Positions 21,440-62,050 of a DNA stretch of 64,000 nucleotides are shown here, piece by piece. Both the position numbers and the translations under genes were made by a program. The notes under the pieces were generated by a model. The model was not told where the DNA came from. It saw nothing but the letters and a program-made list of their open reading frames with translations, and did not search any database. Source of the stretch: Cyanidioschyzon merolae (Eukaryota); NCBI GenBank assembly GCA_000091205.1, contig AP006498.2. The stretch is one strand, 5' to 3'. Position 1 is the first letter of the stretch. The number at the start of each line of letters is the position of its first letter.

Positions 21440-24400
21440 CCGGCGGCGGCGGCAGCGGGTGCAATTCGTTTTGTTTTCGATGACAGAAGGCGTTTCCATG
21501 GATCAGGGGATCCCAGATTGCCGGATGGACGGGTATTGGCATTCGGGAATGCGTCCAGGATGCTGCAGCCTATCTCCAAGTTCCATTGCTTGTACTTTCT
21601 CTCGGAAATACTGGTTGTTCTGTGGGTTCTATCGTGAACAGAGTGCCTGCGTCGCTGCTCCCGCCGTAGCGTCTATATCGCTGGAGTGGATGCAGCACGG
21701 AGATAGAGCTGTGCTTTGTCGTACCACTGAGGGTATCTGTTCGAGGAACGCTTCACCTGAAACGGTGTCGGGATACATAGTGAGTTTGGGAGCCAGAAAT
21801 CTGTCCAGACAAGCCTAGTGCCTGCGACAGCTCGAATTGATATTCTGGGCGTCCACTGCGACCCGGGCGACGCCCAGATGCAGCGGAACTGCCCCGAGTC
21901 TCAGAGTCAACTGCGTTGCGTACGAGTTGCTCAGATCTCGCTAGAGCACCGGGCACGGAGGAGAGCATGGAGCACGAGCCTGGCAGACTCGCGCGGCTTG
22001 CAGGATCTGCCACCTATACGGTAAACTGTCGACAATATGGAGACATTTTCCCGCTTTTAACGTTTATCTCAGAGGACGAAAGAAATCGTTGTATCGTTGC
22101 TAGTTGGTGAATCGTTTTTGCTCTTTGTTTGCATAGCGCGGTCGATACGCGCACCTCCATATCTGGTAGTCACGAGATGCGCCTTGCATGTGGCAGTTGA
22201 AGGGAAACGCGAGACTGACCATTTTTTGACGTTTTGTTTTACTGTACAAGTCGCATTTGCGTTGAGCGCATAGCAAATTATAGTGTTTCATCTCAGTTGT
22301 GTTTTTACCTCCAAGCAAGTCTATTCAAGTGATTTTTTTGCGGTTTATAACTCAAGCGTTCAATGAGCGTTTTTTTTCAAAAATTAAAAAAAAAAAAGCA
22401 AGTATGGAGAAGGATGGTGAGGATCCTGGAGGCCTGGTATCACCGCTTGGCAGAAAAAAAAGCGAAAAACAGCGCCAAACAAAGAGGAACAGGAGAAGAC
22501 GAAAGAGCAGACGGTGGAGGCGTGACGTCATAAGCTGCGAGAAAGATGACAGTGCGACGAGATGGTAGTGAAAGCCTGCCTCCTTGGTCATATCAAGGAA
22601 CCGTACAGGCAAAAGTTGCTAGAGCCCATCAGAAATCATGTCAATTCGTAGTCCGCGAGCATTACAAAAGCCTTCTTCACGACTGAGGTACTTGGAAAAA
22701 TAGATGCATCGCGACGTTACATACATCGAAGCAGTCGAGGATACGGAAAAAGCTTTGAGCAAGGCCTTCATCCACCACTTCACGATTGGCACGGAGACAA
22801 TGTCGGGGAGCAATGAGCGAGTTCACGTCCTCCGGGAAAATTACGCCAAATATCGCTTCAACGGTACTCGATACAGGTGTGATGCGGATATTTGCACCTA
22901 CGGGGCGATCAAGTACCTCACGAGCCTGAAGAACCAAAGGACCATCAACCTCGAACATTTCATGGTGCGCTCCATCTTTACACTCCACCAGGGGCCTGTC
23001 TGGAAAAGAGAGCTAGGCTATTATAGATGGCATCACGAACGATCCCCATCATGAAGATGAGATCGAATTTGTCGACATGAAGACATCACGCATGAGAAAG
23101 AGTGAGGCTTCTGCGATCCGTACGGCAGCACCGGAGCACTGTTCGGTTCTGGGGCTGGCGAATCCAGCAGAAAACTGATCAAATGTTAAAAAAGATGTAG
23201 AAAGATGTTATCCCCGTATCAAGCGGTATTTCGTGTTCCTAAATCGAGAACTCGACCGTAAGGCCGAAAACAGCTGAATATGGAAAAAATGAAGAGTCGG
23301 AGAGACGCAAGGCTGTCCTGATGGGGAAGCGCTTCAATATCGTCACGTTGTGCAATATCAAGTCACATCTTGTGACAATCGACTCCAGAATCCTTTACGG
23401 CATCATGAAGGAGATCAGTCCATAGTTCGATGTAAGGAAGATATGGTTCACCTGCGAAAACCGAGAGACGCACCGGAAGAGTATCTTCGACTTCAAACGT
23501 CTCAAACGAGGAAGGAAAAGCCATCCATGGGGACGATCGAAAGCGATGGGGTAGCCATGTATGTACACTATCGGCGGTTGGAGGCGGATCGTTCTGTTCT
23601 GTCCTCGGGTTCGCCCTCTGCGAAATATGAACATTAGAAGGAGGTGGATCCCGCGACGCAGAAAGTGCATGAGAACGACTTTGTCTTTGGTGCGAACCCC
23701 GGGGGTACGAATATCATAACGATCGCAGTACCCAAGCGTGCGGAAGATGGTGTTGACGGCGATTTACGTCAGAGAGACATGCGTGTTTCGAGGTTCTCGA
23801 GAGCAATATACTATCGAGAATCCGGTAAAATGAATGCGAGGAAGAAAATTGAGACACGGAATGCAGGAGTGAAAGAGCACCTGGATGCTTTGAGCGAGGT
23901 GACGAGCCGCGGAGCGGACTGGCAAGCTTTTCGGGAGTTCATGGAAGTTCGCGTTGCTCGCTGGGAGGCGCTGTGGGAGGAGTGTACAAAGCCCCGATGG
24001 GCTCGTTTGCGTATGAATTTGTAGTATGGGACACAGCGCGCGTTCGCGAACTTTTTGAATGAGTTGAGAGCCCTGAAGGAGGATGAAAATCAGAGGCTCG
24101 TATTAGCGTACGGAGCAGAGCGATGGACATCGAGAAAAGGATGTATGCCAGCTCCAACGACAACAACGTACAAGGAGTGTGCGCGGCGTTTCATTACGAT
24201 ACATGTAGATGAGTTCCGAACGTCCTATACACACCATGAACTGGGGTGTACACTTCAGAGGGTCGAGATGGAAAAGTGCCAGCGGAGCCCTGAGGATATC
24301 AAAGAGTACGGAGTGCTGACGGAAGAGCAAATGGAAATGAAGGCGAAAGTTCGAGGGTTACTTGCACTAGTGAGTACAACTACCAACGGCAAGAAACGGA

Positions 24401-24635
24401 TGGAGTTTGTGAATCGTGAATTTAATGCTGCTATCAATAAAAGATGTGCGGTGATCGAGAAAAGACCTCCAGAGTTGACACGAAGGAATTTTGTTGGACA
24501 ACCTCTTGAGGTGGGATTATATGAGAAAAAGTTGAAACCAGTAGTAGGTGGCCGGTCCAAAAAGACTGAGAGGCATCTGTACATCAGTTCGAGACGTTTT
24601 ATCTAGTGCGGGCCGTTCGCCTCCCCTGTGCACTG
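21440..24635 (+). mobile_element. Copy B of the TnpB/Fanzor-like element, about 3.2 kb and the most complete copy. The right end is at CACTG, 24631..24635.
   Basis: Collinear homology to copy A across the whole length: a non-coding left part (21440..22400), a basic NLS-like ORF, then N-terminal, middle and RuvC regions. The 29 nt after the stop codon are conserved with copies A, C and D. Confidence 0.6.
22400..24606 (+). pseudogene. Decayed TnpB/Fanzor-like RuvC nuclease gene, copy B. The RuvC half (23644..24606) is in one frame broken by a single in-frame TAG at 24022; there are upstream frameshifts near 22568/22704 and 23054.
   Basis: Basic N-terminus MEKDGEDPGG...GRKKSEKQRQTKRNRRRRKSRRWRR. 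RuvC-I-like [23 protein letters not shown], in which the catalytic Asp is replaced. ...HVDEFRTSYTHHELGC... and the RuvC-III signature EFVNREFNAAINK. The tail KLKPVVGGRSKKTERHLYISSRRFI is followed by TAG at 24604..24606. Confidence 0.65.
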
Positions 24636-24953
24636 CCGGCGGCAGCGTGTCCATCTCACCAGTGTTCCTTCACCGCGCACTGAAAAACAAACAAAAAAGA
24701 GAAAAAAAAGCGCACAGATGGAGAACGCTGGCCTATGGAAACGATTTGTCCATTAATTACCAGACCGCATTCGTTTATTCTGTATGAATTCATACATAAA
24801 TGTACTAAAAGGACAGTGCGCGGCGTGACTGCCGTCGCGCACGCAGCTCTACGTGCAGCGCATTGGCACACAACTGCAGTTCCCCTAGTTGTACGATACG
24901 GCCTGTTGCCGCTGGACCCCGCAGCTTGCACAGCACACTGGTGACACGTCGAA

Positions 24954-29930: not shown

Positions 29931-30789
29931 TACAACACCGTCACTATACTGTTCTATGCAGTACCGATGAACGCAGATAGATTCCCGCGGCGAGTATAGG
30001 CGCCGCCAAGCGCCTGCGACGCAAGCGGCGCTCCCTCGCCGCCGCCCTCTGAATGGAAGCAGCAGGCGCGCGTCGGCGTCTGTCATGCTGGATGCGGCAG
30101 TCGTGCGATATAAAAAGTTACTCAACGCGATCGAGTGTATCCAGTGGCGCAAGGGGCGTCGTCGAATCGTGTCGAACACAACTGCAGCTCTGCCAGAGAG
30201 ACCGATGCACTATCGTGGTGATTCGTCGCACAAAGGATCGAAAAGCGCTTTGTCTGAGCAACAAACCTTCATTCCCATAGAGTACACGAGCCGCTCAGCC
30301 GTCGCCGCGCGAGGATTCCGCCACAATCATCCATCGTATTAAACTGAGACAATACGCACAATTATAGACTTCCGCTGGCGTCTCGGCTACGGCCCTGCGC
30401 ACCGTTTCGTGTGGCGCCTTCGCTGAGCGACCGCCAATGCTGCAGACCCAGACTAGCGTGTTTGCTGAAGGACTAGCGTATCCTGTTCGCACAGGAAAGC
30501 AGGCTGCTTCGGGTGCAGAAGCGACCGGGACAAGCATCGCTTCAACGGGTGTTCATGTAGCTGGCAGTAACGTGTCGCTTAGATTGAATGCTTGCGAGGA
30601 CGCAGGGATGCGGCATTCAACAGCCTCATGGAGTACGCTGTTGTCGTGCAGGCCAAACGCGTCGCACCGTGCAACGAGCATAATGGAACTGGGCTCGGAT
30701 TTCGATCGCTGCTGCATCGGTTCGGCTGCGCTCGGGGAGTTGTTAACGGACTTAGGGAGGCGGGCACGCCTTCGTATGCCACACATCCA

Positions 30790-31195
30790 ATATCGTTATG
30801 ACTTTGAAACCAGGTATCGGTACACCTATGAATTCAGAGCACAAGCTCAATGCAGTTCAGACAGGCGTGCTTCCGATATCATTCATACTTTCGACGCAAG
30901 TATCAGTACACCAGTGGCTTCAATGCACATGCTCAATGCAGTTCAGACAGGCGTGCTTCCGATATCATTCATACTTTCGACGCAAGTATCAGTACACCAG
31001 TGGCTTCAATGCACATGCTCAATGCAGCTCAGACAGGCGTGCTTCCGATATCATTCATACTTTCGACGCAAGTATCGGTACACCAGTGGCTTCAATGCAC
31101 AAGCTCAATGCAGCTCAGACAGGCGTGCTTCCGATATCATTCATACTTTCGACGCAAGTATCGGTACACCAGTGGCTTCAATGCACATGCTGAAC
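30790..31195. repeat. 86-bp tandem minisatellite: about 4 full units plus degenerate partial units at each end.
   Basis: The unit gctcaatgcagttcagacaggcgtgcttccgatatcattcatactttcgacgcaagtatcagtacaccagtggcttcaatgcacat starts at 30845, 30931, 31017 and 31103, an exact 86-bp period. The period is not a multiple of 3. The same peptide appears in three ORF frames (30437..31327, 30798..31193, 30850..31623), so these ORFs are artefacts of the repeat. Confidence 0.9.
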
Positions 31196-31777
31196 GCATC
31201 TCGGGTATGCCAGGGATCCAGGGGGAATCCAGAGTCTTCACTGTTGCTTGCGAACAATGCTTTTATCCGGCTTTTCAGACGATGCCAGCACCCAAGTTCA
31301 GAGCCCAGTGTCAACTACCGCAACTGAAGACTCCGCAAGCACAAGTCCTGCATCCTCCGACGGGTTGCGTTTCTTGTAACGCCCTTGAAGCCTCCGGAGG
31401 TGAGACGTCAGCAGACCTGGCGTCGACGGCGCACAGACCTGCGGATACTCGACAGCGATACGCTCGGCTGCTCAGCAGTTCGGATTTGAGGCGAGCGCCA
31501 ACTGGACTGGATCGTTCTACGCTTCTAGCTTGCGACGAGTCAACGGACATTGTCTACTTAGTCGACACTATACCAAAACGTGAGCTGAACGGCTTTTCGC
31601 TGCCCGCAGAGCTTTGGCGCTGAGGGCACTGACGGTGCGTCGCGTGCAGCGAGCCTACAGCTTGAACGCGGAGGTACTGCAGCTGGCGAACAGAGTCGCC
31701 GGGCCAAGGAAGCTCGCTGGTCGAAACACAGGCCTCAGCTCACGGATTTACTGCTTAGTAGTGGTCTCGTTGGCGCC

Positions 31778-35803: not shown

Positions 35804-35999
35804 TGTCGACGGGAGCACTGCGAATAAACGAGTTCGGGTTTACTTGAAGCAAAGTTTGTTCGGGCGACGAAGACGAGTGCGGCTTCATGCGCTGCAAATG
35901 AAAGCATTCGGGTTCACCAGAAACGCTGGTTTATCCTGTTTCCAGCACCGCCGGCTGCGTGTGCAGGCGCCCCGGCAGCGCCAGCACATGAACGCAGGC

Positions 36000-36155
36000 C
36001 ATGCACGAACCCGTACGGTAGAGAATGAACTGCTTCGGAGACCTCAGCTTCTTGAGTTGTACTGTTCGCCATGGGATACAGGCCGTGCACGAACCCGTAC
36101 GGCAGAGAATGAACTGCTTCGGAGACCTCAGCGTCTTGAGTTGTACTGTTCGCCA
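36000..36155. repeat. Two tandem copies of a 77-78-bp unit, about 200 bp downstream of the kinase gene stop.
   Basis: catgcacgaacccgtacggtagagaatgaactgcttcggagacctcagcttcttgagttgtactgttcgccatgggat is repeated with 3 substitutions. Confidence 0.85.
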
Positions 36156-36733
36156 TGGGATGCGTTGTTTCGTGCAGCTCTCAAGCTTCCAGGGAGCGCG
36201 AACGAGCTGGGTAGCCCCAGCGGCACCTAAGGCACCAGAATATCCAGGTGATTTCGAACGCTTTGGCCAAGTGCCAACCTATACCGAACGTGAAGCCTTG
36301 GGTTGCGTGGGAAATTCTTTGGGTTCCGCTCCAGAGATCGACGATGCGTACCAGGAAGACGCTATGCGCTGAAACGCATTCATATGCACAGCAGGATGGC
36401 ATTCGATTCGCACGGAAACCCGAGGCCGTCGTATCTGGCACCGGGCGATAGATAAAGACCGTAAAGCAACGTTCAAGGAGAGCGTCGATGCACCAGACGA
36501 GTGATAAACGGGATCAACATCAGCAGAGGTGTATGCGCTCCGCCCCAGCAACCTAGCTGGAAGCGAGTACGCTCGGTACGACTCGTCGCAAGAGCGAGGT
36601 ACCCGACGCGGCACCAGAAAGCAGGGAAACGCGCTCTGTCGTCGTAACGCTCCGTCGACATGCACCGACACGCGGGGCACACATCCGATACTGCGACAAT
36701 ACCCTACTGCTCGGAGGTGAGACGGGAATTCGT

Positions 36734-38950: not shown

Positions 38951-40589
38951 CTAGTTTCAGGGACAACTGGAGGAAGCGCTACTTCCCAGCGAACGCGAAA
39001 CCTGGCCCGGGGTTTGCTAAAAGATGATATTTGGCTTCGAGCTCGATATCCAAAAGCGCTTGCCGGGTGTTAGGTTGCCGTCTCGACGAGAGCAGGGGCC
39101 CGTCGTCCAAACTATGATCAAACCGCGAGTGATAAGCAGAAGATAAAGGTATCAGTGAGCTAGATGCTAGTTAAGAGAAGCAGCTCTTTTCTAGCGTTCA
39201 ATACAACTCGTTGTGATCACTATACGGTAAAGCTATTTTGCGGGCTACCGACAGAACACCAGAGACAGCTTCTTCAAAGCGTCCAGCACGCCATGTCGGG
39301 TGGAGTACGAGACACACCTACTGGTGAACTAGATGACGTATATCTGAGGCAGCTGTTCCCTTGCGTTTGTGCTGTGGTTACTGGTCATCTACCGACGGGC
39401 TCTCTAGTGACAACACCCAGTCGCATAGCAATTCGCCACGGCGCTACGCTCAAGGTAATCGTCGATGGATTCAGGTTTGTTGCTCCCCCTGCAGAGGGTA
39501 ATTCGATGCTACTTTGCGGCGGATAGCAGGAGATCGACATCAACAAGTAATTTTCCATATAGATCACAGGCGAACTACCAGTAGGATAGATGCTTCATTG
39601 TGCAGTGCAGTGAAGACTGCAATCCTTCTTCAGGTAAGTAATACTATAGTACTCAGATGCATGAGGGACACTGAAAGAAAGATGTGTACGAGCACTGCGC
39701 CAAAAACCGGTATTCTTAAAGACTGCTTGCTCTCAACGTTATGAAAACGACCCGATGATCATCCGACGAAAAGCAAAAGCGACGATCGTAGCCGCCAAGG
39801 CCTCTCTGTTTCTTAATAGCTTGTTCGCGTTGTCTTGAAAACACTGGTGTACAATCGCAAAAAAAGTCCTAGTTCAAGAAAGGACCTCTTCTACCGAAAT
39901 CGCATCTGCTATAGCTTTTCTGGGACTCAGCAATCGTTATTCAGTACAAGAAGGTCGGCTTGTTTTTCAGTCGACGAGACGTCCTTTGCACGAAACGGTC
40001 TGAACTTGGATGGGTATTCCGAGAGGGGCAGCCCGCTGCATGTGCGATTGAACTCGAGGAGAACGGCTGAATCACCTATTCTAGATGGAGTGGATTCATT
40101 TAGCGGCCTCACATTTGCTCGTAGAGAAGGTCCGGACAGCAGCACCAACCCTTTGTCGAATCACTGAATACTTTTCCCCTGACGTCTGGCGACGGTCTTC
40201 CATTCGAAAACGCGGTATTTCATCGTTCCCCATGCGTTCACGCTTCTGCGGATCCTCTCGGATAGAGCTACTTTTCGATCCTCCGTACGCTGTGTGGTTC
40301 AGTCGCATCGAAGGATTATTTTCTACTGTGAAACCTAATGATCGCTCCACTGGGCGAGTCGCTAGATCCTTCAGCACATGATGACACACCGGTGCACGTG
40401 TCGTGTTTCGTCCGCAAGTCCTTCTCGCTCCATGAAGGCGCTCGCCTATGGGCACAAAGAAGCTCTTTTGCTTCTAAAAATAAAAAATCTACGGGAAATG
40501 TTTGAACATGCGAGTTTAGGATCCAAAAAAGCCATCACCGCCGGGTTCGACAAAAAACCAGAGAGCAAATCCTCTTCTCGCCGACCACG

Positions 40590-40930
40590 CAGCGAAGAAG
40601 AGCAAATGACGAAGAAGAGGAGAGATAGGCGAGGAAACTGTTTGCCTGATGTGGTGATGACGAGTCTGTAATGGAGCATCGGGCACGAGTTCTAGAAATC
40701 CTTGCACTGCTGAGTTCAACCAGCGGCAACATAAGTATGGATTTTGTCAGCCGAGAGTTCAACACCGACATGCATATCACACGGTATGCGGTGCTGAAGA
40801 AGAGACCCAAGTAGCTTACGCAATCAAACTTCGTGGACCAGCCTCTGATGCTTGACATGTGATTCGATAAACTGAGACCGATACCAGGCGGCCGGTCCAA
40901 AGAGGCAGGGAGGCGACTGCGCGAAAGTAG
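40590..40930 (+). pseudogene. Short 3'-terminal fragment (copy E) of the TnpB/Fanzor-like element (RuvC-III region only).
   Basis: It translates to ...EEEQMTKKRR...RVLEILALLSSTSGNISMDFVSREFNTDMHITRYAVLKKRPK.LTQSNFVDQPL...PIPGGRSKEAGRRLRE, collinear with the RGLLALVSTTTNGKKRMEFVNREFNAAINIRRCAVLE...NFVGQPL...PVVGGRSKKTERHL tail of copies A-D. Nucleotide similarity ends at 40925. Confidence 0.55.
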
Positions 40931-42120
40931 ATATATATACCATCCATCGACGTGCAACGTTATTCGTTTTAGAGAGTATACATTCGATACTGGACGCTCG
41001 CGACTGATGATTCGTTCACAAGGTCATGCCGAAAGCTCACAGAACTTGCCGCGTCAAATATTCGATTCCGTTAGAAAGACAACTGATATGCATTTTGTGA
41101 CGATTGACGAAATCGAGCACGCCAGCAGGATATTACCGCTCACGGGATATGCCCACAGAACCTGTGTCTCTTCCGTTTCCGCGGAAAAGAGTCTTGGACT
41201 CCGACATCAGTCATCTCAGCGATCGCTTCCAGCAGGGCATGCGACAGCGCAGCATGCGAAAGGGGGAATCGACGGACTGGAATTTCATGACTTGGCCTCC
41301 AGTCTGGAATTTCCCTCCAGTGCGTGCATTATCATGGACAATATTGCGTCCAACAAATCCTCTGTCAAATGGAACATCGTGCTCTTGCGTGTGCAGCGGA
41401 CAGCGTACTCGCCGAGGGCACCGCCCAGAAGAAGCCCGTGATTATCGGGTAGGCAACGAGCGGGGAAACGGAGGTCGACCTCGAGTGGCGCCCTCTCTAC
41501 CCGTAGACGACAGGTACCGAGCGATGAACCAGGCTTTAACGCGACACAGGGCGCCCTCTTGGTGAAGAGCGTGCGTTGGATATACGGGAACACCTGACTG
41601 CATACAAGTGTCAGCGCTGCGAAGGCCGCTCCGAGGCTTCACAGAAGAAGAAGCTGAAAATTGCAAGCAAAGCGTAGAAGTAACGTTCGCATATGCATGA
41701 AATGCTTCGAGACCAAGCGGAAGCGGGAAAAGCGGTACTTTATCGCTGCCACCAACATCCTTCGACTGCCTGCATCGGAGCTAGATAGACAGGGCAGACC
41801 GGGGTCCATCAACCAGGAGCTACGGGAGTCCCGACAAAAGCCTTCACAGACCAAAGCCGCATATGCCACTGCTGACGACACCGAGAAGGAACCGAAACTT
41901 TAGTTTGTACGCCCGAGTTAGAGGAGTCGCTCCATTTGATTCTGACGCGGCTGTAAAGCCACCTGAGAGAATCAACGAAGAGCAGCACCGTTCCCAAAGA
42001 TTGATCCGATTGGCAACCCGGACGCGAAGTACATACCCCATTCCGCATGAGCTGGGGTTTTGGCTGTCGTTGCAGGCGCTTTTGCGCAGAGCCAGAGGCT
42101 CCATATGCTACGAAGCGGTC

Positions 42121-43806: not shown

Positions 43807-44949
43807 TTAGCGAGAACACAAACGCGTTCGAAAGCGATAGTGCGCAACGAACCATTCGTCACCTCCTTGATAGGACCAGAGTTCTGCACATGCCATGAAG
43901 AAGGTTCGCCAGTAGGCCTCCCATCGGATCGCCTCCCTTTCGCTTCCATAGACTTGCCGAAAGAGTTTTCTAACCGCTTCACGATTGCGGTCCATGTTGC
44001 TCAACCAGTGCTCCGCGGTGTTCGCGTAGTGCATGCCGTTGACACTCCATTTGCGCTCCAGTAACAAGTGCTCTTGGAAACGATACAGCAATCTATCGCT
44101 TGGCATGGTACCGCCTGTAAAGAAATACCGAGCCATCCAGTCCGCTTCACTGGTCGCCTCGAAGTGGTACGGCACAGCACGGTGAACAAAGATATGGATG
44201 AAGAGCTTGCCCTGTCCGTCCGGCTTTAACCAACCCGCGATCTTTGCCAACAGTCTATCGTACTGCTTCATATGCTCAAACATTTCGACGCTCACGATGC
44301 GATCGAAAGCGGCACCCGCCGACACATTGCTGGGGCCGTCCCAGTCGTTGATGTCCGCAGTAAGCACCTGGATTCGCGGGTTCGATTCACCTTTGGTAGT
44401 CCAACCGGCGCTCTCAAGGCGGTTCTCAATAAAAGCCCGTTGTGACTTGGAGTTGCTCACTGCAACGATGCGCATATTCGGATAGCGCTCGGCGAGGTAG
44501 AGACTGAGCGAGCCCCATCCACACCCCAGGTCCATAACATACTGACCATCAGCGAGCTCAGCGCGTTCACATGTGAGCGCCAACATAGCCTCCTCTGCTT
44601 CAGCCAGAGATCCGGTGCCGCGGCACGCAAAGTACCCGCAGGAGTACTTGAGGCGTGGTCCGAGCACGAGTTCAAAGAACGCACTGGGTACCTCGTAGTG
44701 CTGCTCGTTCGCAGCAGTCGTGTGCTCTGCGATGGAACTGCGTCTATGCAAGTCCTCAAGAAACAACTCTTCTTTGTCGGCGATAATCGTTACGAGAGAA
44801 GTTTCAGGCTCCGATCCAGGACGAACGCCTGGGAGTGGACTGTACAGCTCCGCGAGCCGTTCACGGAGGAGTTTGCGTATGCCTGCTCGAATCACCCAGT
44901 CGGGCAGGAGGTTGCGCTCCAGCAACCTTTGCGCCACGCTCAAGAGCAT
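43807..44949 (-). CDS. Cyclopropane-fatty-acyl-phospholipid synthase (CFA synthase)-like SAM-dependent methyltransferase.
   Basis: 380 aa. YVMDLGCGWGSLSLYLAERYPNMRIVAVSNSKSQ (SAM motif I), FDRIVSVEMFEHM, LKPDGQGKLFIHIF and the length all match the Cfa/mycolic-acid cyclopropane synthase family. Confidence 0.78.
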   Translation of the reverse strand: MLLSVAQRLLERNLLPDWVIRAGIRKLLRERLAELYSPLPGVRPGSEPETSLVTIIADKEELFLEDLHRRSSIAEHTTAANEQHYEVPSAFFELVLGPRLKYSCGYFACRGTGSLAEAEEAMLALTCERAELADGQYVMDLGCGWGSLSLYLAERYPNMRIVAVSNSKSQRAFIENRLESAGWTTKGESNPRIQVLTADINDWDGPSNVSAGAAFDRIVSVEMFEHMKQYDRLLAKIAGWLKPDGQGKLFIHIFVHRAVPYHFEATSEADWMARYFFTGGTMPSDRLLYRFQEHLLLERKWSVNGMHYANTAEHWLSNMDRNREAVRKLFRQVYGSEREAIRWEAYWRTFFMACAELWSYQGGDEWFVAHYRFRTRLCSR

Positions 44950-45129
44950 TGTTGGAGTCAGTCCAGCTCTTGATACGAACGTGAAACAAAGTGAACGACT
45001 TGCAAGGAGTGCCTCCTGTTTGAACGCGGATAACAGCGTAACAAATAGTTATGAAGCGCTTTGGATCGTCGCACGGGGTATTGACGCGCAGCCTTTTGTG
45101 ATTTATTGTGCTGGATAGAAAACGTACAT

Positions 45130-45748
45130 TGACCATTCATCGTTGATTCCGTGATTAGATATTGGCATTCGGTGAACGCATCCATCATGGTGCACGCTAC
45201 CTTCAAGTTCCATGACTTGTACTTTTTATCGGATGTACTGGTTATTTCGTACGTTCTATTGTGCACCGAGGCTGCCTTGATGGTCAGCAAAAGTGCCTGT
45301 ACCGATGATTCGAATGCTGCGCAGAGACTGCGAGGCATTGCCATATGACTGAGGACGTCAGCTGGAGGTATCGTTCACCCGACACGGCATCGGGATTCAT
45401 GATCATTCTGGAAGCTGGAAAGCCGTGCAGAAAGGCCTGCTGCCTACTGCCTGCGGCAGCGCGAAGCGGTATGCTCGGAGACGATCGGGTCTCGGGCGAT
45501 GTCTAGATGCATCCTGTTCGCTGCTCTTCTCAGCGTAATCTTCGTTGCAGACGTTCTGCTCAGATCTCTCTTCAGCACCCGACACTATAGATGCCTACAA
45601 AGTACAATCACCGTTGACTCGTCCGTCTCTAGGGCGCTTCCGCTTTGGCGATAAACTTTCGTAAATACGGAGAACGTTTCCCTGTTAAAATGGCTACCGT
45701 AGATTGCCAGAGGGATTCTCTTATCTGGTTGCTCGTTGGTGGTTCGAT
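45130..45748. repeat. Left arm of a near-identical (>99%) inverted repeat of about 616-620 bp.
   Basis: Reverse complement of 46624..47258. Compared windows (45130..45200 vs 47190..47258; 45700..45748 vs 46624..46700) differ by a single base. The ORF pairs 45585..45878(-)/46612..46803(+), 45403..45585(-)/46803..46985(+) and 44958..45344(-)/47044..(+) encode identical peptides. Confidence 0.9.
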
Positions 45749-46623
45749 TCCGTTCTCTTTTGAATTTATTATGTAAGGAAAACGCCCGCTCATCTCCGAG
45801 TTCTACCGCTCTCCATGATAGAATGCTCTGCAGCTGAGACGCTTCTATATGTTGTCGAAAACACGTGGTGTCTCGCATTCATTTACGACAATGCAAGACG
45901 GCAGCAACCGTTGCAGAAATCGCCAAACAAGCATATCTCTCTGCTGGAAGGAATGAGTCCGATTCCTCGTTCGCTGCACGAGTTCAGGCTCAGATCGCAT
46001 CTCACTTGAAAGACAGCACGGGACTGTGACAGCCACTCGTGAAATGCCTGCACAGCAGTGCAGTGTTGTGCCATGATTTTTCTGATAGGCCAGGATGTCC
46101 ATAGGTACTCGTCACAGCGTGGATGTTCTCTTCTGGTTTGCCTGATGCATGAGCCCGACACAAGGATGCACAGACGGAGCGCGCTCGGCCGAAGCAGCGA
46201 ACCTCTGATTGACCCGAAAAGAAGCTAGCAAGACATGCGATTACATGCACACAGTCGCATTTTTGTGCATGTTCTTCGAGGCGCTCAGCGCAAGTCGCGG
46301 GCAGGGAGATGTTCGCACTCTTGAAAGTCGGGCCCGTACATGGTGAGGTTTTTGGTCGTGCCCTGGCGGCCCGCACTTGAAAGGCATCTCTCGGATGGGC
46401 GATTAAGTCTCGCATGAGCGCCGGTGCCGAAACGATCAGGTTTTCGTCTGCGGGTCCCATCGCTAAAGCAAAAAGGAAACTCTCTGGAATTGTATCAATC
46501 TACAATATACTGTTCATTTAAGAATCTATCCAACTTCTGAACACGCCATTGCCGAAACAAATAGGTTCTTCAGCTGGCGAGTGCAGTGCGTAGAAGCGAA
46601 TCCGGTCAACAATGAATGCGGAA

Positions 46624-47258
46624 CGCATAGAAGAACGGAATCGAACCACCAACGAGCAACCAGATAAGAGAATCCCTCTGGCAATCTACGGTAGCCATTT
46701 TAACAGGGAAACGTTCTCCGTATTTACGAAAGTTTATCGCCAAAGCGGAAGCGCCCTAGAGACGGACGAGTCAACGGTGATTGTACTTCGTAGGCATCTA
46801 TAGTGCCGGGTGCTGAAGAGAGATCTGAGCAGAACGTCTGCAACGAAGATTACGCTGAGAAGAGCAGCGAACAGGATGCATCTAGACATCGCCCGAGACC
46901 CGATCGTCTCCGAGCATACCGCTTCGCGTTGCCGCAGGCAGTAGGCAGCAGGCCTTTCTGCACGGCTTTCCAGCTTCCAGAATGATCATGAATCCCGATG
47001 CCGTGTCGGGTGAACGATACCTCCAGCTGACGTCCTCAGTCATATGGCAATGCCTCGCAGTCTCTGCGCAGCATTCGAATCATCGGTACAGGCACTTTTG
47101 CTGACCATCAAGGCAGCCTCGGTGCACAATAGAACGTACGAAATAACCAGTACATCCGATAAAAAGTACAAGTCATGGAACTTGAAGGTAGCGTGCACCA
47201 TGATGGATGCGTTCACCGAATGCCAATATCTAATCACGGAATCAACGATGAATGGCCA
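46624..47258. repeat. Right arm of the same inverted repeat. The arms are separated by an ~870-bp unique spacer (45749..46623).
   Basis: See the left arm. Arm identity breaks at 45748/46624 on the inner side and 45130/47258 on the outer side. Confidence 0.9.
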
Positions 47259-47927
47259 ATCTATACGCTTTGTCAAACAAAAAACAATAGAAATGAATCC
47301 GCTTACAGCGAGGATCCAGCGCAGACGCGTCGCCCTACCGCCATCATATTCCACAATTGTGTATCATTGTCCAAGATACCGAGCAGCCGGAACAGAGGCC
47401 TCCTCCCGAGCCTTTCGCACCGCCTTGGCGCGACGGCTTTTTGAAGACCAGTATTCCAGCCGCAGCACCTGCTGCGTTTGCCCAGAGAGCAGCAGCCGTT
47501 CCGTGTGTGTGCCCTTTCTGGTTTCGAACGCTGTATTGAAGCACATTTTACGCACTCCACAGGGAAACAAGTGTCAAAAGCGCGTGTTGCACTATCAAGT
47601 ACGGTTCGTTGCCTGCGACGCAACGCTAGGTACAACGCTGCGCCTTTGCTCCGTGGCGCAGTGTGCAGCCTGCGAGCCTGTGCGCCTTGTGCACAGTCTG
47701 TGCACTCGTTTCGAGACTATCCAAGCGCGTGCTCAGCTGAGCGTAGAAGGAAGAATAAGTTTTCGTGGCATAGGTAGCGCATTTCAAAGGTTTGGCGCGG
47801 AACCGAAAGACGCACGGGGCAATCGCCGCCTCTGCTGGCCGGAAAACCGTCATGAAAAGCAGGTTGTGCTGCGGGAACGGCGAATCAGAAATAAGTTGGG
47901 TTCCACTTCGAGCTCCGTGGTGCGAAT

Positions 47928-49857
47928 ATGTCGCGTCCCAGATACCTCACGAGCGAGGAGCCAAGCCCGCATGCATCGCCAGTGCAGCCGGCTAGGGTAC
48001 GAAAGGCGCAGTTATCGTCGCCGCTTTGGGAGCACGCGTGCCCGCAGGCATTGCCCGAAGAGTCGATGCTGTCTCTTGGCCAAAAGCGAGCTCTTGGGGA
48101 TCGACACGCTTACCATCGAGCTTTTGACGATGCTTGGCAGCGTCCCGGTCCCCGAGAGCGATCGACTTCAGAGCCGCTGCTCATGGGAGTCGACGCCTTT
48201 GTCTCGGGCGACTTGAAATTCAGCACTGCTGCGGAGGTTCCGCTGGACAGGTCTGCCGCCCATTGGAACCCGGACTCGACACCACTCCCGGGTCGATCGT
48301 TTGATGGGGCGTGCCTCCAGCAGACGGACTTTTCCAACTGGTACGCTGATGAGCCGAACTCATCCCTGATGATTCACGATGAATGCTTTGACACATCCGC
48401 AATCGATGGAGAAACGTATTCGGACTCGACATCGGGCGGGGTAGACGTGCGTCCGGAGCGGCCACCTTTCGCTTCTCCGCTGAGCGAAACCGACGATACG
48501 ACGGAGGATAGGCCGCTGGTACACCCAATTAGGGAGTCGACGAGCGCTTGCCTGTGCCAGTATCGCATAGAATTCATGTGTGAGGCGTGCGTCTCTCGCG
48601 CTGGGAATGCGGACGGGGTAGTATCCGCCAGCCCGAGTGATTCCGAAAACGACCACTGCAGATTGCCAGAGCAATGCCCAATAGAACGGCCTGATGCCTG
48701 CTGTGGTCTCGGAACAACTGAAGCAGCAGGCAGCAGTAATGATCAAACACAGGTATCGACTGCGCAGCATGCGTCGGGCAATGCAGAGCGCTCCTCATCT
48801 GACACTCAACACGAGCGGCGATGTGAGGTATGCACATCATGCACCATGCAACGAGCGAGTCAGTGTGCGCACCATGCACAGTCAAGCGTCGTATGCCCTC
48901 TTTCCACTGGGGAACGTAGTTCACGGGATTCCGGGCTCAGTTCACTAAGGAATGTTCCCGCAGCGTCCGGCGATGCGCCTCCTCTTCGGAGCAGTGTCGC
49001 GGATGCAAGTGCGTACGACGCACGTCCGGAGGATCGAGATGCAGCTTGCATGGCGCTGCTTCCAGGTTATGGAGGCACGAACTCCGCGGCACAAGAACAA
49101 ACCCGAAACGGATTTCCACTAGATAGGCATCTGGACTGCACTGCAGCGGAGACGCTGGTTGGCTCTGGGCGGCGTCGTAGTCTTGCTGCGGCAAACGCGT
49201 TCCGATCCCTGCTTCAAGGTCGGCAGCTGCCCAGCCGAACAACGCAGCGATGCAGCGCGGCACATGAGCCGTCCGATCTCATGGACACCGAGTCGGGTTG
49301 TGATGACTCGACATCCAACGCATCGTCACCGCCATCGTCGTCGATAGTCGCGAGAGGCAGCATGTTCTCATCAGACGCGAGTACCTTTCCTGCGGATGAT
49401 GGTGCGAAACGCTCGCATCATTTGCCTTCAGCGAACTCGCCACCCGGCTCGTGTTCATCGAGTGACTCCATTGGGGCGCTACGCTCAGCGCCCATGCGAG
49501 ACGCTTCTGCTGAAAGAGCACAGCAGAGCGCCCGGCGACAACGGGAGCCGCGTGGACCTCCAGATGAGCAAGCAGCAGGTGCATTGGTGACTTGTGCACA
49601 CCTGTCGCAAATCGACACAACGCAGGCCTGGTCGGCGCCAATCGGCGAGTCCGGATGCGCCCTAGTCAAGTCAGCGACGCCGTTGTGTACGCACGACCTT
49701 GCGCCGGTAGACGGCGCTTGTGGTGTCGATGCTGCACACGAGAAACCAGCGCCTCTGCTGCACCTTGTTGACTCGAAGCAAACTGCAGCGTACTCGAGCG
49801 GTGCCTGGGATTCATCTGCTTCCTATGATGTGAGCAAAGACGACGACAACGACGACG

Positions 49858-53213: not shown

Positions 53214-54075
53214 GCTATCGGCATGATTATGGGTAATTTTATATACACAATTGGTCTATACGGTCGTGCGTAGCAGAAGACATCCAGGGTCGCATCCGAT
53301 GCACAGAAGCGCTATCGGCATGATTATGGGTAATTTTATATACACAATTGGTCTATACGGTCGTGCGTAGCAGAAGACATCCAGGGTCGCATCCGATGCA
53401 CAGAAGCGCTATCGACATGATTATGGGTAATTTTATATACACAATTGGTCTATACGGTCGTGCGTAGCAGAAGACATCCAGGGTCGCATCCGATGCACAG
53501 AAGCGCTATCGGCATGATTATGGGTAATTTTATATACACAATTGGTCTATACGGTCGTGCGTAGCAGAAGACATCCAGGGTCGCATCCGATGCACAGAAG
53601 CGCTATCGGCATGATTATGGGTAATTTTATATACATAATTGGTCTATACGGTCGTGCGTAGCAGAAGACATCCAGGGTCGCATCCGATGCACAGAAGCGC
53701 TATCGGCATGATTATGGGTAATTTTATATACATAATTGGTCTATACGGTCGTGCGTAGCAGAAGACATCCAGGGTCGCATCCGATGCACAGAAGCGCTAT
53801 CGGCATGATTATGGGTAATTTTATATACATAATTGGTCTATACGGTCGTGCGTAGCAGAAGACATCCAGGGTCGCATCCGATGCACAGAAGCGCTATCGA
53901 CATGATTATGGGTAATTTTATATACATAATTGGTCTATACGGTCGTGTGTAGCAGATGGCATCCAGGGTCGCATCCGATGCACAGAAGCGCTATCGACAT
54001 GATTATAGGTAATTTTATATACATAATTGGTCTATACGGTCGTGCGTAGCAGAAGACATCCAGGGTCGCAGCGTC
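53214..54075. repeat. 97-bp tandem minisatellite, about 8.9 units, directly upstream of the histidine-kinase ORF.
   Basis: Unit gctatcggcatgattatgggtaattttatatacacaattggtctatacggtcgtgcgtagcagaagacatccagggtcgcatccgatgcacagaagc. Unit starts are at 53214, 53311, 53408, 53505, 53602, 53699, 53796, 53893 and 53990, an exact 97-bp period. Units differ only by cac/cat and ggca/gaca variants. Each unit carries TTTTATATACA and the palindrome GCATCCGATGC. Confidence 0.92.
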
Positions 54076-59743: not shown

Positions 59744-59960
59744 ACGTAAATCGTCTGTTGCATACTATGCTCAAGATCAGCAAGAAAATAGTGGTTCAAC
59801 GCACAGCGCGTTCGTGCTCCTGCACGCTCTCCAAGTCGAGCGCTCTGAACGAGGCGGCACCTCCGGCTCGCTCGTGATGCGCGTTAACGTTCGAGCGGCG
59901 GTTTCGTGCACGCCCGACACCGCACCATCAACGCCGCTCTAAAGTCGAACGACTTCGGGC

Positions 59961-61100
59961 GTGTACAGTAGTGGCGGCAACCGTGCCCTAGACTTAAAGT
60001 CTCCAACTGAAGTGCAGACGCTTCCTAGGCTTTCTGGACCGGGCACTCACTACTGCTTCCAACTTGTTCTCATATAGTTCGAATTTGAGAGATTGTCCAA
60101 TAAAGTTCATTCTTGTCCGCTCTGGAGGTCTCGTCTCCAGCGCTGCACATCTGCTTATATTGATAGCGGCATTAAAGTCGCGATTCACGAATTCCATGCG
60201 TTTCGTGCCATCATTGGTTGTACTTACCAATGCAAGGAGTCCACGAACTTTCGCCCTCCTTTCCATTTGCTCCTCCGTCAGCGGTCCATACTTTTTTATA
60301 TCTTCAGGGCTCCGCTGTCACTTTTCCATCTCCACTCTCTGAAGTGTACACCCCAGTTCATGCTGTGTATAGGACGTTCGGAACACATCTATCGGTATCG
60401 TGACGAAACGCCGTGCACACTCTTTGTACGTTCTTGTCGTTGGAGCTGGTGTACACCCTTTTTGGGTCTTCCATCGCCCTGCTCCGTACGCGACTACGAG
60501 CGTCTGACTGTCATCCTCCTTCAAGGCGCTCAACTCATTGAAAAAGTTCGCGAACGCCCGCTGTTTCCCACAGTATAGATTCATGCGCAGACGAGCCGGC
60601 CGGGGCTTTGTATATTCTTCCCACAGCGCATCCCAATGCGCAAACCGATCTTCTATGAATTTCCGAAAAGCTGTAAAGCCCGCTCCTCGGCTCGTCACCT
60701 CGCTCATAGCTTCCAGGTGATCTTTCATTCCTGAATTCCACGTACAAATTTTCTTCCTCGCATTCATTATACCGGATCCTCGATAGCATCTTGCTCTCGA
60801 GAACCTCAAAAAGACGCATATCTTTCTGACGTAAGTTACCATCAGTCCCATCTTCCGCACACTTTGGTACAGCGATGGTTATGATATTCGTATTCCCAGG
60901 GTCCACGCCAACGACAAAGTCGTTATCCTGCACCTCCTGCATCGCAGGATCCCCATCATTCTCATCTACATCCTTCGCCGAGCCGTCTACAAGGTTGTAC
61001 TTTTCCACTTCCTGCGTCACAGAATCCGCGTCCTTCTCGTCTATATTCTTCGCCACGGGCGAAGCCGAAGACGGACCAGGAGACGGGCCCAACGGCGCTG
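59961..61100 (-). pseudogene. TnpB/Fanzor-like RuvC fragment, copy C. It is 5'-truncated just upstream of RuvC-I and lies head-to-head with copy D.
   Basis: Minus-strand ORFs 60535..61092, 60318..60860 and 59994..60266: ...[26 protein letters not shown] (RuvC-I with Asp) ... VDVFRTSYTQHELGCTLQRVEMEK ... RGLLALVSTTNDGTKRMEFVNRDFNAAINISRCAALE (RuvC-III). The stop at 59994 is followed 31 nt later by the conserved right end (+ strand gtgtacagtagtggc at 59961..59975). Confidence 0.65.
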
Positions 61101-62050
61101 GAGGCGCAGAAGAACGCGTTTGCCGTTGGCATGGATCCCGGGAACACCCACATCGTTACCATCGCAGCACCCAAGCGTGAGGAAGATGGCTCTGACGGCA
61201 ACTTACGTCAGAAAGACATAAGTCTGTTGAAGCTCTCATGAGCGAGATATTACCGAGAATCCGGTATAATGAATGCAAGGAATAAAAGTGAGACATCGAA
61301 TTCAGGAGTGAAGGGAATTTGGAAGCGATCAGCCGGGTGACGAGCCGCGGAGCCGACATGGAAGCGTTTCGAGAGGCCATGAGCATTCACGCAGCTCATG
61401 ACGAAAGCCTTTGGAAAGAATGCACAAAGTTCAGGTGGGCTCGTCTGCGTATGAACCTGTACTGTTGGAAACAGCGAGCATACGCCAGCTTTTTCAATCA
61501 GTTGAGCGCCCTCAAGGAGGACATGAGCCAAAGGCTCGTAGTAGCATACGGGGCAGGTCGATGGATGCCCCAAAAAGGGTGTACACCAGCTCCAACGACA
61601 AGAACGTACAAGGAGTGCGCACATGGTTATGTCGAAATACCTTTAGATGAGTTTCGAACATCTTCTACACACCACGAGCTGTGTTGTACACTTCAGAGGG
61701 TCGCGATGGAGAAAAGCCAGCGGCTCGCTGACGGAAATGCAAATGGCAAGGAGGGCGAAACTTCGAGGACTACTCGCATTGGTTACTACAACTACTGATG
61801 GCAAGAAACGAATAGAGTTCGTGAATTGAGACTTTAACGCCGCCATCAGTGTAAGGAGGTGTGCAGTACTGGAAAGAAGACCCCCGGAGTTGGCGAGAGC
61901 CAACTTTGCGAGGCAACCTCCCAAAATGGAGTGATACCAGAAGAAGTTGAAACCAGTAGTAGGTGGCCAGTTGCTGAACGCCAGCACAGTCGTCTGCACA
62001 TCGATGGGTAGACATTCGGTCTACGGCGGACGGTGTGAGAAGCGCCACTC
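61100..62050 (+). pseudogene. TnpB/Fanzor-like RuvC fragment, copy D, on the plus strand and heavily decayed. It abuts copy C head-to-head.
   Basis: NAFAVGMDPGNTHIVTIAAPKREEDGSDGNLRQKD..., then ORF 61319..61798 (RWARLRMNLYCWKQRAYASFFNQLSALKED...DEFRTSSTHHELCCTLQRV), then RGLLALVTTTTDGKKRIEFVN.DFNAAISV ... KLKPVVGG. It ends with gccactcttgtacactg at 62034..62050, which matches the family right end. Confidence 0.6.

What the first reader, a model, noticed from the sequence alone, without database searches (positions are those of the whole stretch)
45130..47258. Near-perfect 616-bp inverted repeat with an 870-bp spacer, filling the divergent promoter region between the CFA-synthase-like gene (minus) and the PTP gene (plus)
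The arms 45130..45748 and 46624..47258 are reverse complements. I found only one mismatch in the stretches compared. Identity ends sharply at both the inner and the outer edges.

The structure is 2.1 kb in total. It sits exactly between two divergently transcribed genes (start codons at 44949 and 47928). Neither arm nor spacer encodes a recognisable protein; the spacer ORF 46002..46460 is orphan.

Near-identity implies either a very recent duplication/insertion or ongoing gene conversion between arms. The possibilities are a foldback-type mobile element, a palindromic bidirectional regulatory module, or a hairpin-forming fragile site. The arms contain a GGTTCGATTCC tRNA-T-loop-like motif but no cloverleaf.
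Basis: seen in the sequence. Interest (0 to 1): 0.6.

Follow-up and report, generated by a model that had tools for sequence, protein, structure and literature searches.

The report
Two inverted copies of known repeat

Summary
The window is the left end of chromosome 16 of Cyanidioschyzon merolae 10D. The inverted repeat is confirmed: 45125-45756 against 46632-47263, 627/632 identical, with an 875-bp spacer.

Each arm aligns end to end with positions 4/8-635 of the published consensus of CMe-1A. That is exactly the 635-bp 5' module which Bao & Jurka (2013) describe as the separate repeat TE-N2_CMe (about 70 copies, no terminal inverted repeats, class unknown).

More copies exist. There are diverged ones in the window (21478-24648, 194-3329, fragments) and a 97-98% copy beside the CMP036C orthologue. 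The arms are non-coding, not tRNA-like and not unusually structured. The spacer is unique DNA with an orphan, frameshift-prone ORF.

So this is not a foldback element. It is two stand-alone repeat units, 5' ends outward and 3' ends inward. The left unit has its own flanking 17/18-bp direct repeat.

The near-identity is better explained by gene conversion than by recent insertion. The outermost 14-22 nt differ in the same way in 10D and in wild relatives, while interior differences are lineage-specific. A second pair of family copies shows a clear 720-bp conversion patch.

Metagenome contigs show both spacer orientations, but short-read graphs cannot decide that. The finding is ordinary and of low novelty.

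The parts
45111..45756 (+). Left arm: a complete TE-N2-type unit (the 5' module of the CMe-1A family), 5' end outward. The near-identical core is 45125-45756. The diverged 5' terminus is 45111-45124.
   Evidence: Aligns to CMe-1A consensus positions 8-634 (45119-45756, 73%, E 2e-100). nhmmer with a family profile places it at 8-643. The 5' end is placed at about 45111-45113 by alignment to the consensus.
46632..47278 (-). Right arm: the same unit in inverted orientation, 5' end outward. The near-identical core is 46632-47263. The diverged 5' terminus is 47264-47278.
   Evidence: Aligns to consensus positions 4-635 (47275-46631, 73%, E 6e-101). The profile match runs 4-646. The terminal 16 nt match the consensus at 11/16 but differ from the left arm (hand count from the alignments). 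The same terminus is seen in the wild-relative contig L012.
45757..46631 (.). Spacer of 875 bp: unique intergenic DNA. It contains the orphan ORF 46002-46460 (-).
   Evidence: No similarity to CMe-1A or to anything else in the window. The ORF has no Pfam hit. Among 1.84 billion representative proteins it matches only its own orthologue cluster plus one weak hit, and that orthologue has a frameshifted C-terminus. It differs at 2/875 sites between 10D and the ENA contigs.
45093..45110 (+). Candidate target-site duplication of the left unit, 5' copy (CTTTTGTGATTTATTGTG).
   Evidence: It lies directly next to the unit. It matches 45757-45773 at 15 identical positions, with one gap and two mismatches. 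4 of 2000 shuffles score as well. With gaps the match extends into 45111-45124 (1 of 3000 shuffles). The test was chosen after seeing the sequence, so it is tentative.
45757..45773 (+). Candidate target-site duplication of the left unit, 3' copy (CTTTTGAATTTATTATG). It is the first bases of the spacer.
21478..24648 (+). Reference full-length, decayed CMe-1A copy in the same window. Its first about 650 nt are the diverged homologue of the arms. 21490-22210 is a gene-conversion patch shared with another copy.
   Evidence: 82% identical to the 3169-bp consensus over 1-3152. The arm aligns along its whole length to 21482-22128. Against the DUF179-adjacent copy in L009, identity is about 98% up to consensus position ~730 and 58-76% beyond it.

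Best explanation
The arms are two separate copies of a known non-coding dispersed repeat of C. merolae. This is the ~635-bp unit catalogued as TE-N2_CMe, which is also the 5' module of the ~3.2-kb Fanzor1-bearing element CMe-1A.

The two units lie tail-to-tail, with 5' ends outward and 3' ends inward, 875 bp apart. They sit in what was an ordinary ~1.7-kb intergenic region between the CMAS-family methyltransferase gene and the PTP gene. The spacer is simply the original intergenic DNA between the two insertion sites.

Shown:
- Homology to the family consensus, with unit boundaries at consensus positions ~1-8 and 635.
- Other copies elsewhere.
- No coding signal, no tRNA and no unusual RNA structure.

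Inferred:
- Both insertions are old, since they predate the split of strain 10D from its Yellowstone and other wild relatives.
- The 99.2% identity of the arms is maintained by gene conversion between the copies, including a third copy next to CMP036C.
- The extreme 5' termini and the flanking duplication have drifted.

No function is needed to explain the structure. Expected side effects are recombination between the arms, which could invert the spacer, and assembly breaks.
For: Source and literature:
- The source is C. merolae 10D chromosome 16, left end.
- Bao & Jurka 2013 (PMC3627910) state that the 5' 635 bp of CMe-1A is 95% identical to the entire TE-N2_CMe, that TE-N2_CMe has about 70 copies, that neither element has TIRs, and that their class is unknown.
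- Nozaki 2007 (PMC1955436) report 253 copies of a 3.2-kb interspersed element.

Family membership:
- The consensus taken from the paper's supplement aligns to the arms at positions 8-634 and 4-635 (profile search).
- It aligns to full copies at 21478-24648 and 290-3323.
- The arm aligns along its full length to 21482-22128.
- A third copy, 97-98% identical, lies in another gene context.

Nature of the arms and spacer:
- No codon periodicity.
- No tRNA or Rfam match, even at E <= 10.
- RNA fold z-score -0.57.
- The left unit has its own flanking direct repeat.
- There is no duplication around the composite and no TIR within an arm.
- The spacer is unrelated to the family.

Gene conversion:
- Thirteen differences lie within 45105-45132, seven of them inside the unit (45111-45124) and two more just inside the core (45127, 45132), against 3 in the remaining ~620 nt. 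The right-arm terminal states recur in the PTP-side contig L012 and the left-arm states in the CFA-side contigs of the wild relatives.
- Interior arm-to-arm differences are lineage-specific. In 10D they are 45459, 45582 and 45599. In the relatives they are 45346, 45412, 45681 and 45710.
- Position 45299 is G in both 10D arms and A in every copy from the relatives.
- An independent pair of family copies shows a sharp ~720-bp block of 98% identity inside elements that are otherwise 58-76% alike.
Against: - The arms are only 73% identical to the CMe-1A consensus. Typical copies are about 80%. The TE-N2_CMe consensus itself was not available to me, so assignment to TE-N2 rather than to a 3'-truncated CMe-1A rests on the end point at 635.
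- The right arm's profile match runs a few nt past 635 (to 646), and it has no detectable flanking duplication. It may therefore be a truncated CMe-1A head rather than a TE-N2 unit.
- The lineage comparison uses short-read metagenome contigs assembled through a repeat, and some of them are demonstrably joined arbitrarily. Individual SNP phases may be chimeric.
- The 3' ends of the arms show no terminal drift, unlike the 5' ends.
- I could not confirm the Fanzor/TnpB nature of the CMe-1 ORF with Pfam or PDB. That part rests on the paper.
Confidence: 0.85

Rival explanations
1. Two very recent, independent transpositions from one active master copy. The near-identity reflects youth, not gene conversion.
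For: The arms are 99.2% identical. A third copy at 97-98% shares the left arm's 5' terminus exactly. This looks like a young subfamily of at least three copies on one chromosome arm.
Against: - Both arms, with their different 5' termini, are already present in relatives whose unique DNA differs from 10D by 0.5-0.7%.
- Differences are grossly non-uniform: seven between 45111 and 45124 inside the unit, plus 45127 and 45132 just inside the core, against 3 in the other ~620 nt.
- Interior differences are lineage-specific, and 45299 changed in both arms of one lineage.
- The left unit's flanking duplication is already imperfect, at 15 of 17-18 positions.
- A clear conversion patch exists in a sister pair.
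Confidence: 0.08
2. A single foldback-type or composite transposon (arm-spacer-arm) that moves as one 2.1-kb unit.
For: Long terminal inverted repeats make up 60% of the structure. One metagenome contig (L034) joins the spacer plus an arm to a different flank, the CMP036C side.
Against: - There is no direct repeat flanking the composite.
- The left arm alone is flanked by a direct repeat that includes the first bases of the spacer.
- The arm boundaries coincide with the ends of a stand-alone 635-bp family unit.
- The spacer has no other copy in the window.
- The L034 join runs through a 98%-identical repeat that the same assemblies demonstrably traverse in arbitrary ways.
Confidence: 0.03
3. 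A functional invertible or palindromic regulatory module. The arms mediate flip-flop inversion of an 875-bp promoter-bearing segment shared by the two divergent genes.
For: The structure lies between two divergently transcribed genes. Contigs L001 and L002 carry an identical spacer in opposite orientations relative to the CFA flank. 632-bp inverted repeats are a good substrate for homologous recombination. From my own knowledge, C. merolae supports efficient gene targeting by homologous recombination.
Against: - In a de Bruijn graph with k=141 the two arms collapse and both traversals are equally valid.
- Both contigs have the form flank-arm-spacer-partial arm, so the orientation is arbitrary and gives no evidence.
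- The arms are generic repeat copies.
- The spacer shows no special conservation, structure or RNA-family match.
- No recombinase gene is adjacent.
Confidence: 0.03
4. An assembly artefact or a non-transposon inverted segmental duplication.
For: Near-perfect inverted repeats are error-prone in assemblies.
Against: - 10D is a finished telomere-to-telomere sequence.
- The same three junction types are recovered in many independent metagenome assemblies.
- The boundaries coincide with family-unit ends, which a random duplication would not do.
Confidence: 0.01

Closest known systems
TE-N2_CMe and the 5' 635 bp of CMe-1A (Repbase families described by Bao & Jurka 2013, Mob DNA 4:12, PMC3627910). 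CMe-1A appears to be the same as the '253-copy, 3.2-kb novel interspersed repetitive element' of Nozaki et al. 2007, PMC1955436; that equation is my inference from matching size and dispersal, and no tool result or paper states it.
   Same: Same organism. Homologous along the whole unit, starting at consensus positions ~1-8 and ending at 635. Non-coding, without terminal inverted repeats, and dispersed in many copies. The same unit heads the full-length CMe-1A copies in this window.
   Different: The arms are 73% identical to the CMe-1A consensus, so they are a divergent sub-lineage. They are 97-99% identical to each other and to one further copy. The inverted pairing is not mentioned in the two papers I read. 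A candidate 17/18-bp flanking duplication is seen here, whereas the paper could not determine TSDs.
Foldback elements (such as Drosophila FB) and other long-TIR non-autonomous DNA transposons
   Same: Two long inverted arms around a short unique middle, with no coding capacity.
   Different: Here each arm is a complete unit of a repeat that also occurs singly. There is no duplication around the whole structure, and the middle segment is not repeated elsewhere in the data I could search.
Concerted evolution of inverted or dispersed repeats by gene conversion (plastid inverted repeats, primate Y-chromosome palindromes, Ty/LTR ectopic conversion in yeast). These comparisons are recalled from my own knowledge.
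   Same: The interior of the repeats is homogenised while the flanks and edges diverge. Lineage-specific changes are shared by both arms. There are sharp-edged patches of high identity between otherwise diverged paralogues.
   Different: The repeats are short (0.63 kb) transposon relics. Only the 5' edge shows drift. The direction and frequency of conversion are unknown.
tRNA genes and tRNA-derived SINEs (including the permuted tRNA genes known in C. merolae)
   Same: An 11-nt match to the T-loop / B-box consensus, GGTTCGATTCC, at 45741-45751.
   Different: No cloverleaf or partial tRNA match by ARAGORN or Rfam. The motif is GAATCGTTTTT in the 21-kb copy and GGTTAGTCTCT in the consensus. It lies at the 3' end of the unit, not the 5' end.

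Membership tests
TE-N2_CMe / 5' module of CMe-1A | Sequence homology to the first 635 bp of the CMe-1A consensus | tested here: met
   blastn with the consensus from the supplement of PMC3627910: 45119-45756 matches consensus 8-634 and 47275-46631 matches 4-635, 73%, E about 1e-100. A family profile gives E 2e-93 for each arm.
TE-N2_CMe / 5' module of CMe-1A | The unit ends at consensus position 635 and lacks the Fanzor-coding remainder | tested here: met
   The arm-to-arm identity and the match to the consensus both stop at 45756 / 46632, which is position 634-635. The spacer has no similarity to consensus 636-3169. Caveat: the right arm's profile match reaches 646.
TE-N2_CMe / 5' module of CMe-1A | Identity to the TE-N2_CMe consensus itself | not testable with these tools
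   The TE-N2_CMe consensus is held in Repbase and is not in the supplement. Only its stated 95% identity to CMe-1A positions 1-635 is available. By that route the arms would be roughly 70-75% identical to it.
TE-N2_CMe / 5' module of CMe-1A | No terminal inverted repeats within the unit | tested here: met
   The first 50 nt against the reverse complement of the last 50 nt score no better than shuffles (1782 of 2000 shuffles score as well).
TE-N2_CMe / 5' module of CMe-1A | Dispersed, multi-copy | tested here: met
   Window copies at 21482-22128, 156-716 and 7123-7371. A 97-98% copy lies next to the CMP036C orthologue. Genome-wide counts of about 70 and about 150 come from the paper only.
Fanzor1 (TnpB-like) element, as the parent family CMe-1A | ORF with a TnpB/RuvC-like nuclease domain | tested here: inconclusive
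   The consensus ORF (734 aa) gives only a faint Pfam hit to Cas12f1-like_TNB (E 0.51) and no PDB match by sequence. The classification rests on Bao & Jurka 2013. The arms themselves contain no part of this ORF.
Foldback / composite transposon | Target-site duplication flanking the whole arm-spacer-arm unit | tested here: not met
   The left flank against the right flank scores no better than shuffles (1712 of 2000 and 176 of 2000 shuffles score as well).
Foldback / composite transposon | Further copies of the complete unit, including the middle segment | tested here: inconclusive
   There is no second spacer in the window. The rest of the 10D genome was not searchable. The one ambiguous contig, L034, is most simply an assembly join through the repeat.
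tRNA gene or tRNA-derived SINE | Cloverleaf or a match to a tRNA covariance model; conserved A/B boxes | tested here: not met
   ARAGORN finds 0 genes. Rfam finds nothing at gathering threshold or at E <= 10. The motif is not conserved in the family.
Invertible DNA switch | Both orientations present in molecules that span both arms | not testable with these tools
   Contigs with both orientations exist (L001 against L002 and L026). All come from short-read graphs that cannot span 632 nt.

The most novel reading that the evidence does not exclude
The near-identity may not be passive. The 5' module of CMe-1A/TE-N2 may undergo break-induced, homing-like gene conversion that starts at a fixed site about 12-16 nt inside its 5' end.

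Two independent near-identical pairs begin their high-identity block at the same consensus position. These are the arms, and 21490-22210 against the DUF179-adjacent copy. The left arm's flanking direct repeat ends at that same position.

If the break were made by the element's own Fanzor1 RNA-guided nuclease, this locus would show a natural 'copy-repair' role of Fanzor in a eukaryotic genome.
Probability: 0.06. Interest if true: 0.65.

Novelty: already known. Interest (0 to 1): 0.17.

Why it matters
There is little at stake for the locus itself. It removes a candidate 'foldback element / regulatory palindrome' from the list by assigning it to a repeat family catalogued in 2007 and 2013.

Three modest points remain useful:
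- This very repeat-poor, recombination-proficient alga (the recombination proficiency is recalled from my own knowledge) shows clear signs of ectopic gene conversion between old transposon relics. These signs are the arms and the 720-bp patch at 21490-22210. Sequence identity therefore cannot be used to date insertions in this family.
- The left arm offers a candidate ~17-bp target duplication for a family whose insertion mechanism and class are still unknown.
- 632-bp near-identical repeats make short-read assemblies join this region arbitrarily. Four different joins were seen. Orientation or rearrangement calls here need long reads.

Tried and rejected
- tRNA, permuted tRNA or SINE origin of the T-loop-like motif. 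Rejected: ARAGORN and Rfam are negative, and the motif is absent from the other copies and the consensus.
- Arms as decayed coding sequence. Rejected: mismatches against the 21-kb copy are evenly spread over codon positions (0.335, 0.370, 0.367), and six-frame hits occur in all frames.
- Arms as a structured RNA. No support: z-score -0.57.
- Spacer as a remnant of the CMe-1A body or of another cargo. No similarity by a family profile or by sensitive blastn. A weak 25-nt resemblance of the right-arm 3' flank to consensus 692-713 (51 of 3000 shuffles) was not pursued.
- Spacer ORF as a gene. It matches only its own orthologue cluster plus one weak hit, and the C-terminus is frameshifted in relatives.
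- Inverted-repeat centromere of the Komagataella type (a lead from memory). Not pursued. The arms are generic repeat copies, GC is 0.52-0.53 and so not AT-rich, and no CENH3 data are at hand.
- Spacer inversion. L001 is flipped relative to L002, L026 and the window at the junction level. I judged this uninformative because of graph symmetry.
- Fetching the 10D sequence around CMP036C to see the third copy whole. The gene is not in the position index. Metagenome contigs all break inside the copy.
- A target duplication for the right arm and for the full copy at 21478-24648. None found.
- Independent confirmation of the Fanzor fold of CMe-1 by PDB or Pfam sequence search. Negative or faint.
Full report
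**Observation.**
The inverted repeat is real. The repeat finder reports a single large inverted pair in 44000-48500, with 875 nt between the arms. BLAST of the left arm against the reverse complement of the right gives 627/632 identities without gaps, for 45125-45756 against 47263-46632.

The five mismatches are at 45127, 45132, 45459, 45582 and 45599.

The inner edges are sharp. The outer edges are not, because weaker but real homology continues for about 14-22 nt. No other near-identical arm copy lies in the window.

**Source.**
Exact protein look-ups identify the window as Cyanidioschyzon merolae strain 10D, on a 908,485-bp record. The locus tags (CMP005C, CMP016C) indicate chromosome 16. 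The methyltransferase is BAM81691.1 and the PTP is BAM81692.1. The window opens with the telomere unit CCCCCCATT, which agrees with Nozaki 2007. The locus is therefore about 45 kb from the left telomere of a finished genome.

**What the arms are.**
A sensitive self-search shows that the arm is a dispersed unit. A full-length copy of about 67% identity lies at 21482-22128, and further copies lie at 156-716 and about 7150-7370. In the window these units are the heads of ~3.2-kb repeats: 1158-3317 resembles 22474-24635, and there are partial copies at 59.9-62.1 kb.

The literature explains them:
- Nozaki et al. 2007 reported 253 copies of a 3.2-kb interspersed element.
- Bao & Jurka 2013 named the Fanzor1-bearing element CMe-1A (3169 bp, about 150 copies).
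- They also state that its 5' 635 bp is 95% identical to the entire TE-N2_CMe. TE-N2_CMe has about 70 copies, neither element has TIRs, their class is unknown, and TSDs were undetermined.

I took the CMe-1A consensus from their supplement and aligned it to the window:
- It covers 21478-24648 at 82% and 290-3323 at 74%.
- It matches the two arms at consensus 8-634 (45119-45756) and 4-635 (47275-46631), 73%, E about 1e-100.
- A profile built from three full copies gives the same limits.

Each arm therefore begins at the family's 5' end and stops at position 635, which is the end of the TE-N2 unit. That explains the sharp inner edges. The 5' ends face outward and the 3' ends face inward.

**Negative tests on other readings.**
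- Arms as coding sequence: there is no codon periodicity against the diverged copy.
- tRNA-like origin: ARAGORN and Rfam find nothing, even at E <= 10.
- The GGTTCGATTCC motif is GAATCGTTTTT in the 21-kb copy and GGTTAGTCTCT in the consensus.
- The arm does not fold better than shuffled sequence (z = -0.57).
- The spacer has no similarity to CMe-1A.
- The spacer's 152-aa ORF has no Pfam hit. Among 1.84 billion representatives it finds only its own orthologue cluster plus one weak hit, and that orthologue is frameshifted at the C-terminus.

**One element or two?**
The evidence favours two separate units:
- There is no direct repeat around the composite and no TIR within a unit.
- The left unit has its own direct repeat lying directly against it: CTTTTGTGATTTATTGTG (45093-45110) and CTTTTGAATTTATTATG (45757-45773). 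4 of 2000 shuffles score as well, and 1 of 3000 when the match is extended with gaps.
- This repeat pairs the CFA-side flank with the first bases of the spacer. It implies that the left unit inserted on its own into continuous intergenic DNA.
- The right unit has no detectable duplication, and its profile match runs slightly past 635. It may be a truncated CMe-1A head.

Removing both units leaves about 1.7 kb of intergenic DNA.

**Independent confirmation and other copies.**
Contigs from metagenomes reproduce the structure. They come from JGI 3300005861, 3300005573, 3300009503, 3300002182 and the 33000503xx series, from ENA ERZ272472xx, and from Logan. They are 99.3-99.6% identical to the window.
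- The CFA flank with the left-type terminus is seen in L003-L006 and L013-L022.
- The PTP flank with the right-type terminus is seen in L012.
- The spacer bounded by both inner arm ends is seen in L001, L002, L023 and L026-L033.

A scan for an arm 26-mer found a third context (L007). This is a 97-98% copy about 450 nt downstream of the orthologue of CMP036C, a GYF-domain gene on the same chromosome. It shares the left arm's 5' terminus.

**Why the arms are so alike.**
Differences are grossly non-uniform. Thirteen variable positions lie within 45105-45132, seven of them inside the unit (45111-45124) and two more just inside the core, while the remaining ~620 nt differ at 3 sites.

The terminal differences are old, because L012 carries the right-type states and all CFA-side contigs carry the left-type states.

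Interior differences are lineage-specific. In 10D the arms differ at 45459, 45582 and 45599. In the relatives, proximal L026 and distal L027 differ at 45346, 45412, 45681 and 45710. Position 45299 is G in both 10D arms and A in every copy from the relatives.

This is the pattern of concerted evolution, with one caveat: contigs through repeats can be chimeric.

An independent pair makes the process explicit. The window's CMe-1A copy and the copy next to the DUF179 gene (L009) are about 98% identical from consensus ~12 to ~730 (21490-22210). They are 58-76% identical beyond that point. Their first 12 nt are again diverged. That block does not end at 635, so it is a conversion tract and not a TE-N2 insertion.

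I therefore favour old insertions homogenised by gene conversion over very recent transposition.

**Spacer orientation.**
L001 carries the spacer flipped relative to the window, L002 and L026. The spacer sequence is identical in all of them. L034 joins the spacer plus an arm to the CMP036C flank.

With k=141 and 632-nt arms, the arms collapse into one graph node and every such traversal is equally valid. All of these contigs have the form flank-arm-spacer-partial arm. They are no evidence for or against real inversion or rearrangement.

**Mechanism and function.**
The most likely account is neutral: two relics of a known repeat, tail-to-tail, exchanging sequence by homologous recombination. 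In CMe-1A the module lies upstream of the ORF and reads in the same direction (ORF start at 906). Any promoter activity in the arms would therefore point into the spacer, not towards the two genes (inference). The 875-bp spacer should make hairpin or cruciform extrusion unlikely compared with short-spacer palindromes; this is general knowledge and was not tested here.

**Unexplained.**
Both near-identical pairs start their high-identity block at about consensus position 12-16, and the left arm's direct repeat ends there too (note). A fixed break or initiation site is conceivable but unproven.

I could not verify the Fanzor assignment of the CMe-1 ORF by Pfam or PDB sequence search.

**Verdict.**
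It is wrong on the foldback and regulatory-palindrome readings. The repeat family is already described, so the finding is ordinary.

Noticed in passing
window 1-9: The window starts with CCCCCCATT, the reverse complement of the C. merolae telomere unit AATGGGGGG. The window is therefore the extreme left end of chromosome 16. Nozaki 2007 list 16L among the ends with no homology to other ends.
   Followed up: partly
window 194-3329 and 21478-24648: Two full-length but decayed copies of the ~3.2-kb CMe-1A element (74% and 82% identical to the consensus). The ORFs are broken into pieces. One copy lies directly next to the telomere.
   Followed up: partly
window 59956-60981 (-) and 61030-62089 (+): A second inverted pair of the same family, this time head-to-head. 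Both are 3' parts of CMe-1A, truncated at nearly the same consensus position (~2100-2125). They are 73-80% complementary and their matches overlap at the centre (60978-61081). It looks like an old spacer-less palindromic duplication rather than two independent insertions.
   Followed up: partly
window 21490-22210 vs L009 about 690-1399: A sharp ~720-bp block of ~98% identity between two CMe-1A copies at different loci that are only 58-76% identical further on. This is a gene-conversion tract. Its 5' limit is at consensus ~12, the same place where the identity between the arms begins.
   Followed up: partly
L034 1-9399 (JGI 3300009503): This contig joins 83 nt of arm, the spacer and a full arm to the CMP036C/DUF179 region instead of the CFA gene. 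It is either an assembly join through the 98%-identical repeat or a real recombinant or inversion between the left arm and the third copy.
   Followed up: partly
window 53214-54070: A 97-bp tandem array of 8.8 copies at 98% identity, between the PTP gene and the histidine-kinase-like gene. The wild-relative contig L012 carries far fewer copies (its alignment to the window jumps from 53391 to 53893), so copy number is polymorphic.
   Followed up: no
window 30814-31202 and 35995-36161: An 86-bp x 4.5 tandem repeat lies inside overlapping ORFs at 30437-31623. An 84-bp x 2 repeat lies downstream of the kinase/ankyrin gene. Metagenome contigs differ in copy number at the second repeat.
   Followed up: no
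L009 5197-5514, L010 4351-4512, L034 5131-5448: A short ORF with a weak DDE_3 transposase hit lies between the DUF179 and GYF (CMP036C) genes. It is possibly one of the eight 'bacterial-like' class II relics mentioned by Nozaki 2007.
   Followed up: no
window 7123-7371 and 40671-40928 (also 40465-40617, weak): Small fragments of the same repeat family, matching consensus ~200-395 and 2839-3099, in other intergenic regions.
   Followed up: no
window 47044-48216 (+): A 390-aa ORF starts inside the right arm and overlaps the annotated PTP start. Its orthologue is called as a 322-aa gene on metagenome contig L012. It is almost certainly spurious and an example of a repeat-seeded false gene call.
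   Followed up: no
window 3329, 59956, 62089 (3' ends of CMe-1A copies): Three copies share about 10 more nt (GGCG|TTGTTGGTG-like) beyond the last base of the published consensus. The true 3' end of the element is therefore probably a little longer than catalogued.
   Followed up: no
window 27232-27383 vs 41608-41760: A 150-nt inverted similarity at 71% identity between two distant intergenic stretches. It is not related to CMe-1A in my searches.
   Followed up: no
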